Notes: generated from the letters alone by a model not told the origin. Counted from the stretch's first letter, positions 15,558 through 57,932 are shown. The stretch is DNA of 64,000 nt from Eledone cirrhosa (GCA_964016885.1 OZ024743.1:28520001-28584000), one strand, 5' to 3'. Translations and numbers: made by a program.

Positions 15558-16382
15558 ATGAAAGACGTAAAATAAGAAAATTATAAAAATTAACTTACTG
15601 AAATTTCACTCCAACTAATTAGTTTCTGAAAGGGAATAAACATGGTTACCGATCGGAACAACATGGAGAAAAGTCCTTTAGTCATCAGGGAGATCTATTC
15701 TCTGCTAAGTTCCCAGGCAATGCGTGGACACAGGGAACTTATACAAAAATAATTCAGTGGATGGAAAAAAGCGACCGAGGACTAAATTCCAGGATATTGA
15801 AAAAATCACTGCCTACTTGGTCGGTGGCAAATTCAAAAGAATCAATCACGTGTCATTGAGGTTAATCAGTGAGGAGTGGGTGCTAATAAGACAGTTGCCT
15901 GACTATTACTATGAACCATAGTAGTAGTTTTGGCAAATTTTTGCTCAACAAAATAATTTGGAGATAATTATAAAGAATTAGTACATCTACCAACATATAT
16001 ATACAGATGCATACCTATGCTAGCAAATATATAGGTTTGTCTTATTAACTTTGTGGTTCAATGCAAGGGGATGCAGAACAATTATATGAAAGACGTAAAA
16101 TAAGAAAATTATAAAAATTAACTTACTTACTAAAATTTCACTCCAACTAATTAGTTTCTGAAAGGGAATAAACATGGGAGATCTATTCCCTTTCAGAAAC
16201 TAATTAGTTGGAGTGAAATTTTAGTAAGTTAATTTTTATAATTTTCTTATTTTACGTCTTTCATATAATTGTTCTGCATCCCCTTGCATTGAACCACAAA
16301 GTTACTAAGACAAAACCTATATATTTGCTAGCATAGGTATGCATCTGTATATATATGTTGGTATATATACTAATTCTTTATA
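15558..16382. mobile_element. Non-coding HHR element: ~528-bp period partial tandem plus inverted segment
   Basis: AAAGACGTAAAATAAG at 15561 and 16089; minus-strand HHR at 15609-15692 (CTCC-CTGATGA-55 nt-GAAA-CTAATTAG-TT-GGAG); 16186-16380 is the reverse complement of about 15970-16170. Confidence 0.8.
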
Positions 16383-16389
16383 TATATAT

Positions 16390-17520
16390 TACTAGCTTGA
16401 AACTAGTACAGCGTTCCTTTGTCAGTGTTGAACAAAAGAGCAACGGTGGTTGCTAGACACTACGGCTTAATACGGGATGTTTGTTTACAAGCACACCGAG
16501 CATTATAATAAATGTTCGGTGAATCCATACGTGCATATATATATGTCTGCATGTATGTATATATATATACATACTACTGTACGTCGGTATACATATATGT
16601 ATGTACGTGTACATACTTATATTTAAGTAACAGCCGTACTAAGAGTGGGAAATGAAATATCGTTTCATTTTTTCCGTTTATCGTTTTCGGTGCACCCGGC
16701 CGATTAACCCACTCGATATGCAAATTGGGCTACTCAGCCGTTAATATGCATAAGGTAAGTATATACGTTCAACAATCTGGCAGGAAGGTATACGTTGCTG
16801 ACGATAGCTAACAAGCTTGAAACTAGTACAGCGTTCCTTTGTCAGTGTTGAACAAACGAGCAACGGTGGTTGCTAGACACTACGGCTTAATACGGAATGT
16901 TTGTTTACAAGCACACCGAGCATTATAATAAATGTTCGGTGAATCCATACGTGCATATATATATATGTGTGCATGTATCTATATATATATACATACTACT
17001 GTACGTCGGTATACATATATGTATGTACGTGTACATACTTATATTTAAGTAACAGCCGTACTAAGAGTGGGAAATGAAATATCGTTTCATTTTTTCCGTA
17101 TATCGTTTTCGGTGCACCCGGCCGATTAACCCACTCGATATGCAAATTGGGCTACTCAGCCGTTAATATGCATAAGGTAAGTATATACGTTCAACAATCT
17201 GGCAGGAAGGTATACGTTGCTGACGATAGCTAACAAGCTTGAAACTAGTACAGTGTTCCTTTGTCAGTGTTGAACAAACGAGCAACGGTGGTTGCTAGAC
17301 ACTACGGCTTAATACGGGATGTTTGTTTACAAGCACACCGAGCATTATAATAAATGTTCGGTCAATCCATATGTGCATATATATATGTGTGCATGTATGT
17401 ATATATATATACATACTACTGTACGTCGGTATACATATATGTATGTACGTGTACATACTTATATTTAAGTAACAGCCGTACTAAGAGTGGGAAATGAAAT
17501 ATCGTTTCATTTTTTCAGTT
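16390..17520 (+). mobile_element. Retrozyme-like tandem array: about 2.7 units of 420-422 bp, each with a minimal HHR
   Basis: GAAACTAGTA at 16399, 16819 and 17241; complete HHRs at 16792-16834 and 17214-17256; no ORF; bounded by TA repeats. Confidence 0.9.
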
Positions 17521-17569
17521 TATATATATATATATATATATATATATATATATATATATATATATATAT

Positions 17570-17752
17570 ACGTAGGTCCCGGGTTGAGTCGGGGATAACC
17601 ACAGTAAGTAAGGTACTCAATACATGGCAGAGTAACATTTTTTTATTTTATAGAAGGAGCTTCTACAGGACTAGTACTGTTTCATTCAGATGAAATCCTG
17701 AAGAAAACAGTACTAGTCCTGTAGAAGCTCCTTCTATAAAATAAAAAAATAT
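17570..17752. repeat. PLE-terminus-like fragment with fold-back inversion; relatives at about 30358-30480 and 34695-34765
   Basis: TTTTATAGAAGGAGCTTCTACAGGACTAGTACTGTTT...AAACAGTACTAGTCCTGTAGAAGCTCCTTCTATAAAA. Confidence 0.7.
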
Positions 17753-17764
17753 ATATTATTTTGT

Positions 17765-55619: not shown

Positions 55620-56200
55620 TAAAATGGAAGTCCCAAGGTCGATCTAATCAATTGTTCTCTATCCTTCCCTGGCTAATGATTGAGGAGTATGAACAATTTC
55701 TGTTTAAATCATTGAGCTGATAGAGTTCCAAGGAACATGGCATTACTTGTTCGAGTAAAGTGAAGAATGACGCAATTGTCCTGCTCGTGGTATTTCAGTG
55801 TCGATCGGTGCATTGTCAAATGAGTGTATGCTGAATAACTGTTGTCACGTACGAGACGGAACCAGCTATCAACCAATTCTATCATGAATATCAAACCAGC
55901 GCCTTCTTTTAGCATGGAATTGACGTTACAATTCCCCAGCCTGTTAGTTAGAATGAAGGAAGTTGTTCTGGTGGACGCAGAGGAAAGTTTAAAGAGAGAT
56001 ATTTTTCCGCTTGAACAAAGCCCTCTTCAGTTTTTTAAAGTACCATAGGAGAAGAAAAGTGAACCCAGAGAAGAGAATGTTACTCTCCGATGAATTTTAC
56101 GAAAGTTGAAAGCCATTGTCTAAGTTCCAGCTCTGCGTGTGTCACCTGGCGACAAGAATTGAAAGCAAGCATCTGATGCATTTGATGTTGATGTATCGTT
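55620..56200 (-). pseudogene. Possible decayed IS630/Tc1-like transposase
   Basis: Weak remnants VKFIGE (cf. FIDE), RGLCSSG and DNCVILH (cf. DNARIH), in the expected order. Confidence 0.3.
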
Positions 56201-56479
56201 TTGTGTGTGGCACTATTATGGGGGTTCTTTTTTTGCAATATCTTCTTTTTTTGTGTGTGTATTTCTTATTATTGTTATTTCTTAACATTTGACGTTTATT
56301 TGTGAATTTGTTTTCATACTCGATATAAATAACCGACTACATCATTTGTTGTTTCTTTAATTTTTTCTTTGTACTATCCTCAATAATTTAGGTCCTTGAA
56401 TCAATAAAATAAACTATACTAACATGGAAACTATACAGAAAAAATCCTCATCAGCTTTATTATTATTACTATTAGGTAT

Positions 56480-57755
56480 TTGGATTGGCAGTATTGGTAG
56501 AGGGTCGGACGCCATGCTTTGACGTATAGAGTTACGGTCCTTGACATTCTGAGTTCAAATCCCGCCGAGGTTAACTTTGTTTTTCATCCTTACGGGGTCG
56601 ATAAAATAAAGTACCAGTAATGCACTGGTTAATTGCTGGCCTAGTGTCAAAAGTAGAAACAATTATTATTACTATTATCCGCTTGTCACACATCAAGTGT
56701 GGATGAGGGTGGCGCATTCAATAGCGGAGGATTTTTGTGACATTTCTAAGGATTGTTGTATTTTGTAAGGGCCCCACCCAGACGTTGGTCCTAAGTTATT
56801 CGGTGGAGTGGCAGTATCGGTAGAGCGTCGGGCAACATGATTTGAAGCATAGAGCTGCGGTCGTTTAAGTTCTGAGTTGAAATCCCAAACTCGACGAGGT
56901 TAGCTTTGCTTTCATCCTTACGTGTTCGATATAATATAGTATAGTATAATATAAGATAATCTAAACTATAATAAAGTAAGGAGCGCCGGACTGCGTACAG
57001 TTTATAATTTTTTTATCCCATTAGTAAAATAAGTTGGATTACTTTGAATAAATAATGAATGAATATTACATAATTTATCTACTAAATTTCGTGGCTGTTG
57101 ATTAAATATATTTTGTTTATTTAAAGATTCACTTCTTTAAAATTTGTGAAATGTCAACACTTCGGGTTGGCCATCGCTTAAATAAACATACTAATTTTCT
57201 GTCACTAATTTTCTCCTAATACAGTTTATATATAATATCGTCTTTTTTAATGTATCATGGATTACGTTACTGATTACATAAGGCAGTGTAACACAGTCTT
57301 CGTTTAATTTCTGTGTATTATATATTGTCAATTACGATTTTATTTGATGTATCATATCTACATGTATATACCTGCGTATAATATCAATATACACACTACA
57401 CATGCCAGCAGAAAACCACCTGAAAGGTGGTTTTTCTGCTAGTATAATATAATATAGTATAATATAAAATAATTGTTTCTACTTTTTGGCACAAGGCCAG
57501 CAATTACCCAGTGCATTACTGGTACTTTATTATATCGACCCCGTAAGGATGAAAGGCAAAGTTAACCTCGGCGGGATTTGAACTCAGAATGGCAAGGGCC
57601 GTAACTCTATGCGTCAAAGCATGGCGTCCGACCCTCTACCGATACTGCCAATCTATAAAATAATGGTTTCTTATATAGGCACAAGGCCAGCAATTTTGGA
57701 GGGAGGGGGTCGATTAAATCGACCCAGTGCGTGACTGGTACTTTATTTTATCGAA
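56480..57755. mobile_element. Four dominant-SINE copies (plus: about 56480-56670, 56805-56930; minus: about 57470-57655, 57660-57755)
   Basis: Match to the SINE consensus. Confidence 0.8.
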
Positions 57756-57811
57756 TAACATGAGTAACATGAATAAATCGATTTCACAGTTAAAGGACTA
57801 ATATTTATTAC

Positions 57812-57932
57812 ATAACTGACACGTGTTTCACCAATAAACAGTTGAGCAATATCTCTGATGGGAACTATCGGAAAACTCGATTTCCAATATCTTCGCGTTA
57901 GCACCGTGATAAATCGGCTTCTTCAGAGACTA
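57812..57932 (-). ncRNA. HHR with 90-nt stem II insert
   Basis: CUGAAGA-AGCCGAU...AUUGGU-GAAA-CACGUG-UC; stem I is weak. Confidence 0.6.

What the first reader, a model, noticed from the sequence alone, without database searches (positions are those of the whole stretch)
15609..57932. Long-stem-II HHR architecture recurs in four sequence-unrelated elements in one window
Seen: stem II inserts of 116 nt (43-197), 55 nt (15609-15692), 81 nt (24625-24745) and 90 nt (57812-57932). Each closes as a helix, and each has a different palindromic stem III (CGAUCG, CUAAUUAG, CAAUUG, CACGUG). Inference: the same structure from different sequences points to a lineage-level HHR subtype. Distinct palindromes could make dimeric cleavage family-specific. 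I cannot verify that this is undescribed.
Basis: partly seen in the sequence, partly recalled or inferred. Interest (0 to 1): 0.75.

Follow-up and report, generated by a model that had tools for sequence, protein, structure and literature searches.

The report
Long-armed hammerheads of Penelope jumping genes
The four motifs are predicted self-cutting RNAs at the ends of three related Penelope-type jumping genes and one non-coding look-alike; an oversized folded middle arm occurs over 21,000 times in this genome and likely helps the element's own protein handle its RNA, but the short palindromes are shared between families, so they are not family-specific keys.

Summary
Real, common, and found before by this scan elsewhere in this genome (e1-9903353, e1-10315367, e1-8664355). 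All four are minus-strand type I hammerhead motifs with palindromic stem III and a 55-116-nt stem II; the window holds 13 such motifs against 0.10 per shuffle, nine with ordinary 12-26-nt stems. A genome pattern finds 21,362 with 76-106-nt stems (control 59). They are not unrelated: three end Hydra-type Penelope-like elements whose proteins are 45-52% identical, and two share insert sequence; the fourth is a non-coding ~528-nt tandem monomer. Compensatory changes keep the arm folded in two of four families. A single origin is neither shown nor rejected (AU p=0.19); one five-family clade is solid. The palindrome-as-family-key idea fails genome-wide: CAAUUG serves 10,087 long-stem and 14,267 short-stem motifs, and one family uses two palindromes. 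Published Hydra hammerheads have 12-26-nt stems; a spikemoss element reaches about 54. No cleavage or expression evidence was obtained. New variant of a known kind; the arm's job is inferred.

The parts
43..197 (-). E1 hammerhead: stem I 188-197/43-52 (10 bp), core 181-187, stem II 65-180 (116 nt), GAAA 61-64, palindrome 55-60, predicted cut between 53 and 52
1..4874 (-). E1 element: 5'-truncated Hydra-type PLE (ends about 160 nt before the window start); RT thumb plus GIY-YIG frame at 3526-4950, microsatellite-rich 3' UTR
4862..5054 (+). inverted partial copy of the E1 hammerhead (begins inside stem II, no CUGA core) plus short tail, at the element's 5' break
15609..15692 (-). E2 hammerhead: stem I 4 bp, stem II 55 nt, palindrome CUAAUUAG
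15555..16382 (-). E2 element: non-coding ~528-nt tandem monomer with a partial second copy and an inverted piece (16184-16382), ending in (TA)n
24625..24745 (-). E3 hammerhead: core CCGAUGA, stem II 81 nt, palindrome CAAUUG, stem I GCU/AGC plus distal helix
24383..27700 (-). E3 element: 5'-truncated, frameshifted Hydra-type PLE (DKT, RT 26611-27387, CxCx5C linker and GIY-YIG 25559-26689), 3' UTR, hammerhead, tail to (TA)n
57812..57932 (-). E4 hammerhead: decayed copy of an old family, stem II 90 nt (family 98-102), palindrome CACGUG
57760..58070 (-). E4 stub: hammerhead, ~55-nt tail and an inverted longer tail piece upstream; no coding sequence at this site

Best explanation
These are hammerhead motifs in the terminal repeats of three related Hydra-type Penelope-like retrotransposons and one non-coding tandem derivative, whose stem II has grown into a folded arm that likely serves as a docking or folding aid for the element's own protein, while cutting is predicted to occur as a dimer of two copies on one tandem transcript. 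Shown: motif, position, protein homology, abundance, compensatory pairing in two families, reuse of palindromes. Inferred from known PLE and newt/axolotl hammerheads: the tandem RNA brings two motifs together, the self-complementary stem III pairs between them, and the RNA is cut at GUH about 50-70 nt before the first reverse-transcription start. Partner choice would come mostly from being on the same molecule and from stem I; the palindrome only has to stay self-complementary. Inferred and weakest: the arm is bound by the element's protein, as the one PLE hammerhead tested with protein needs it to cut.
For: Position: in intact tandem E1 units (6,672-nt period, 813-aa ORF) the motif lies about 360 nt before the ATG, so the arm is non-coding; E3 has its ORF upstream in 13 of 30 loci; E4 follows a decayed EN in 4 of 22 loci. 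Copies end at fixed sites after the cut: E1 +72 (13 of 35), E2 +53 (50 of 57), E3 +62/65 (9 of 50) and about +252, E4 +51/58 (19 of 32), like the PLE 'tail' (PMC11167929). Selection on the fold: E2 family 89% of cells paired, 6 of 15 pairs changed on both sides, slid controls 38-52%; E3 group 90%, 7 of 18, 4/500 shuffles. Dimer: monomer stem III hairpins are all positive in energy (+1.5 to +2.4 kcal/mol) while self-duplexes are -6.4 to -10.3; one family switches CAAUUG/CGAUCG, a double change that keeps self-complementarity. Protein assistance of a PLE hammerhead: PMC11167929.
Against: No cleavage shown. No pile-up of 5' ends at the predicted cut in my sample (one stub in the window at -2/+1 and one doubtful low-complexity case; the loci were chosen for holding the whole motif). 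Many copies start 5' of the core (E1 13 of 35 at 6-10 nt, E4 14 of 32 at 19-23 nt), so uncut RNA is a normal template. Covariation is almost absent in E1 (1 of 37 pairs) and E4 (0 of 24); the tested structures were derived from the same small alignments (8 and 6 related sequences). Arms share no sequence across most families and short-stem families thrive without one (14,267 short CAAUUG motifs). E3 carries U4C and 11 of 20 clusters begin stem II with a mismatch, which may lower activity. Nothing here tests protein binding.
Confidence: 0.55

Rival explanations
1. Tolerated growth: stem II points away from the active site, so inserts accumulate and only their base pairing is kept, to stop misfolding of the core; the arm has no partner.
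For: Continuous lengths 11-99 nt; unrelated arm sequences in E1, E2 and the Q94 family; tandem duplications and deletions inside the E1 arm; three long-arm lineages not joined with support.
Against: Inner helices and a sequence motif persist across the E3 group and E4; a post hoc internal-loop descriptor (A-R-U opposite Y-A-G) hits 14 of 41 inserts against 3.1 expected, about 8 in the matching register, including E1, E3, E4.
Confidence: 0.3
2. One reading: convergent long-stem subtype in unrelated elements, with palindromes acting as family-specific dimer keys.
For: The four window palindromes differ and cross-pair poorly; E2 is unrelated in sequence to the others.
Against: E1/E3/E4 proteins 45-52% identical; E3-E4 arms align (p 0.001-0.002 for 3 of 4 undeleted copies); CAAUUG is shared by families with stems of 11, 20, 61, 79-82, 90, 95 and 96 nt; E3 and a 20-nt family share core variant, palindrome and 3-4 bp of stem I both ways.
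Confidence: 0.08
3. The arm works at the DNA or translation level (downstream promoter element or 5' UTR structure), not through the element's protein.
For: It lies within about 130 nt of the apparent RNA start and in the 5' UTR; type I hammerheads promote cap-independent translation in fungal viruses (PMC13725137).
Against: Compensatory changes point to RNA pairing rather than DNA motifs; the arm lies 5' of the cut and would be removed from a cut mRNA; non-coding E2 keeps one.
Confidence: 0.12

Closest known systems
Hammerheads of Hydra-clade PLEs (Craig et al. 2021, PMC8557442, File S2)
   Same: Type I motif near the element end, extra or mismatched base at the foot of stem II, short near-palindromic stem III that is reused across families, (TA)n targets, RW[KR], DKT and CxCx5C protein motifs.
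   Different: The 26 Hydra rows have 12-26 nt between the core halves (my count from the table); here 49-118 nt. Their stem III mostly has a 1-3-nt centre; here perfect even palindromes. E1 unit is 6.7 kb against under 3 kb.
PLE-X1 hammerheads of spike mosses (same File S2, marked as deviating)
   Same: PLE-borne type I hammerhead with a long stem II (about 54 and 48 nt by my count).
   Different: Plant, endonuclease-less, rDNA-targeted elements of another clade; shorter arm; two families only.
Minimal metazoan PLE hammerheads (Cervera and De la Pena 2014, PMC4209133) and the Anolis PAc hammerhead (PMC11167929)
   Same: In the pLTR, palindromic stem III, proposed dimer action, unpaired base after A9, fixed tails after the cut.
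   Different: Helix II there is 6-8 bp; in PAc the ORF starts in stem II, here the arm is non-coding.
Metazoan non-LTR retrozymes (PMC7229834; bioRxiv 10.64898/2026.07.22.740005), for E2
   Same: Non-coding tandem monomers each with a type I hammerhead.
   Different: Monomer about 528 nt against 150-450; long stem II; PLE-like inverted piece and fixed tail; circles and the helper element not shown.

Membership tests
type I hammerhead ribozyme | core CUGANGA ... GAAA with A15.1-U16.1 and NUH | tested here: met
   E3 has the variant CCGANGA (35 of 36 copies)
type I hammerhead ribozyme | three helices around the core, stem I open | tested here: met
   stem I 10, 4, 3 and 2 contiguous pairs (other E4 copies 4); stem II closes after a bulge or mismatch; stem III needs a dimer
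type I hammerhead ribozyme | G10.1-C11.1 pair flush with the core | tested here: not met
   first/last bases C.A, C.A, A.A in E1-E3; E4 has G-C or G-U after one bulged base; published PLE hammerheads also carry an extra base here
type I hammerhead ribozyme | self-cleavage at NUH | not testable with these tools
   indirect test on copy ends inconclusive
Rfam hammerhead families | score at the gathering threshold | tested here: not met
   no hammerhead hit in the window or in 10 long-stem loci at E<=1; the short motifs are missed too
Hydra-clade PLE | single ORF, RT then C-terminal GIY-YIG | tested here: met
   E1 intact 813 aa; E3 and E4 in broken copies; Pfam gave only a weak RVT_1 hit
Hydra-clade PLE | RWK, DKT and CxCX5C motifs | tested here: met
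   E1 RWR, DKT, CxCx5C; E3 DKT, CxCx5C; E4 DKT, linker decayed
Hydra-clade PLE | placement with named Hydra reference proteins; absence of CCHH | not tested
   trees used unnamed homologues with the same motifs; published sequences were not put into any call
Hydra-clade PLE | generally under 3 kb | tested here: not met
   E1 tandem unit 6,672 nt; E3 exceeds 3.3 kb although truncated
non-LTR retrozyme (E2) | non-coding tandem monomer with a type I hammerhead | tested here: met
   longest stop-free frame under 80 aa
non-LTR retrozyme (E2) | monomer 150-450 nt | tested here: not met
   about 528 nt
non-LTR retrozyme (E2) | expressed as linear and circular RNA | not testable with these tools

The most novel reading that the evidence does not exclude
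Family identity sits in stem II, not stem III: the long arm is a family-specific RNA handle, with a shared A-R-U/Y-A-G internal loop, through which each element's protein switches on its own hammerhead, so that dozens of co-resident families can reuse the same palindrome without cross-activation, and non-coding parasites such as E2 must grow an arm to be served.
Probability: 0.25. Interest if true: 0.72.

Novelty: new variant of a known kind. Interest (0 to 1): 0.42.

Why it matters
The role of hammerheads in Penelope-like elements is open. A class with 50-120-nt stems II, over 21,000 copies in one genome and missed by Rfam, shows that standard searches undercount them. Pairs such as E3 and the 20-nt family (same core variant, palindrome and stem I foot, different arm) give a ready natural experiment on what the arm does and whether families cross-cleave.

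Tried and rejected
Rfam: no hammerhead hit. Run search for E1: no RNA holder listed; contigs of four runs, three coded organisms, cover the E1 motif but gave no usable covariation. Cut-site test: no cluster of 5' ends (one search was spoiled by indels and dropped); head-to-head patterns at the E3 cut and at a control offset both gave 0, uninformative. PLE link in the random sample was weak because most copies are stubs: long 4 of 20, mid 2 of 24, short 6 of 50, background 7.6%. The two protein hits beside E4 belong to other families and were rejected. E2 helper element not found (1 of 30 loci with an upstream hit). The 13-nt word shared by E1 and E3 (p 0.003-0.007) is AT-rich and lies in an E1 duplication; treated as chance. 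The label '49 nt' given to one family was wrong: its EN is 226/240 identical to a copy followed by an 85-nt motif; relabelled. The first tree split long from short at bootstrap 92, but this fell to 74 and then vanished with outside homologues and more families. Rows left out of later trees: two fragments under 135 columns and two or three near-duplicates of E1, six more rows for the AU test. Lunse et al. (PMC5785218) was not held.

Full report
Observation. A scan for C[UC]GANGA, up to 200 nt, GAAA, a perfect palindrome, UH and at least 2 bp of stem I found 13 motifs in the window against 0.10 per shuffle (300 shuffles). The four cited ones are there, all on the minus strand, with the stated lengths and palindromes (E1 53-187, E2 15613-15688, E3 24635-24734, E4 57818-57926). 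The other nine have 12-26 nt. None of the four long stems pairs flush with the core, and only E1 and E3 fold better than shuffles; the window copies of E2 and E4 are damaged relative to their families.

What carries them. All four are repeats in the 3.0-Gb genome G000 (first-look candidates 36, 1391, 2170 and 140; lower bounds; a second E1 query gave 493). E1 and E3 lie downstream of RT plus GIY-YIG frames on the same strand in the window. Intact E1 copies form tandem units of 6,672 nt with an 813-aa ORF bearing RWR, DKT and CxCx5C, the Hydra-clade motifs of Craig et al.; the hammerhead lies about 360 nt before the ATG. E4 is an old family: 4 of 22 loci found with its upstream sequence hold a decayed EN followed by the E4 motif, and a fifth, assigned by 69% DNA identity only, holds RT 54% identical to E3's. 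E2 is a non-coding ~528-nt tandem monomer. Copies end at fixed distances after the predicted cut, as PLE tails do.

Related, not unrelated. On shared columns E1/E3, E3/E4 and E1/E4 proteins are 49, 52 and 45% identical. E3 and undeleted E4 arms align (p 0.001-0.002 for 3 of 4 copies, in a run of 300 pairs; window copy 0.037). E2's arm matches none of them. In a tree with ten unnamed homologues, E3, E4 and the 85-, 90- and 92-nt families form one clade (99.9/100); E1 and a 94-nt family sit in an unresolved base with short-stem families. Forcing all long-stem rows together costs 4.3 log units, AU p 0.19: one origin is neither shown nor rejected.

How common. In 1.2 Mb from seven blocks, 94 motifs were found; 18 have 46-130 nt with an even palindrome of 6 or more (0.1 per shuffle, 10 shuffles) and 74 have 11-45 nt; lengths form a near-continuum. 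Genome-wide, the pattern with 76-106 nt and CRMKYG matches 21,362 times against 59 for the reversed control; this omits E2 and the window's E1 length. Of 20 matches picked for diversity, 18 had a true palindrome.

Is the arm selected? In E2 subfamilies 6 of 15 pairs change on both sides (16 cells against 6.4 in shuffles; slid controls far lower); in the E3 group 7 of 18. E1 shows 1 of 37 and E4 0 of 24. These are small, related, hand-thinned sets and the structures came from the same alignments. A post hoc internal-loop motif recurs in E1, E3, E4 and relatives (14 of 41 against 3.1; about 8 in register); a lead only.

Palindromes. Monomeric stem III is unstable and self-duplexes are stable in all four, which fits dimer action as described for PLE and amphibian hammerheads. 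The four window palindromes cross-pair poorly. But CAAUUG occurs in 10,087 long-stem and 14,267 short-stem motifs (controls 8 and 11), in 5 of 20 long-insert clusters; CGAUCG in 4; one cluster holds both. E3 and a 20-nt family share core variant, palindrome and the foot of stem I. By the geometry of the double hammerhead (established knowledge) a mixed dimer needs both stem III and stem I to match, so stem I and co-transcription, not a unique palindrome, would give specificity.

Mechanism. Best guess as given above: dimeric, probably protein-assisted cleavage on a tandem RNA, with the arm as docking or folding aid. The docking idea was taken from note e1-9903353 and from the protein dependence of the Anolis hammerhead; I did not test it. 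Evidence of cutting in vivo was sought and not found.

Literature seen. PMC4209133 parts 1-2 of 4; PMC8557442 passages, section 11, supplement parts 1-2 of 59; bioRxiv 10.64898/2026.07.22.740005 part 1 of 5 (supplements closed); passages only of PMC6765202, PMC3088659, PMC7229834, PMC6155905, PMC11167929, PMC13725137; PMC5785218 not held. Seven searches showed no paper on 80-120-nt stems II in animal PLEs; figures and most supplements were not seen, and spikemoss PLE-X1 is a precedent at about 54 nt. The hammerhead numbering is recalled.

Verdict. Interest 0.42.

Noticed in passing
E1 family, second base after CUGAAGA (window 179); L092, L097, L103, L104, L108: The two arms of single head-to-head insertions differ at this one site (C/G/A) in 5 of 6 independent insertions, with only 5 other differences in about 930 sites; intact tandem arrays carry G, which adds two pairs at the foot of stem II, the window copy C. 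Suggests site-specific misreading by the RT, perhaps at a modified base. No such site in E3; E2's top site coincides with a 4-nt indel.
   Followed up: partly
window 27786-28055: Head-to-head stub of an E2 subfamily whose two arms start at -2 and +1 of the predicted cut, next to E3's 5' break.
   Followed up: partly
window 5357-5500, 16798-16828, 17220-17250: Short hammerheads (14 nt, CUAG) of an abundant tandem family; 35 of 94 motifs in the sample, with a 15-copy array of ~468-nt period.
   Followed up: no
window 11512-11740, 29011-29039, 47556-47598, 59994-60030: Further short-stem hammerheads (26, 12, 24, 16 nt); the first two form an inverted pair.
   Followed up: no
E3, 20-nt, 61-nt and 94-nt families: The U4C core (CCGA) recurs together with CAAUUG in families far apart on the protein tree, hinting at module exchange or a linked constraint.
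   Followed up: partly
window 36120-39488 +: Stop-free frame of 1122 aa of a non-LTR retrotransposon (RT plus restriction-like endonuclease by eye), followed by related broken copies to 43281.
   Followed up: no
window 17717-18355 +: GIY-YIG-like frame of another PLE-type family.
   Followed up: no
window 14384-14452 +: tRNA-like Rfam hit, 32 bits, probably a SINE head.
   Followed up: no
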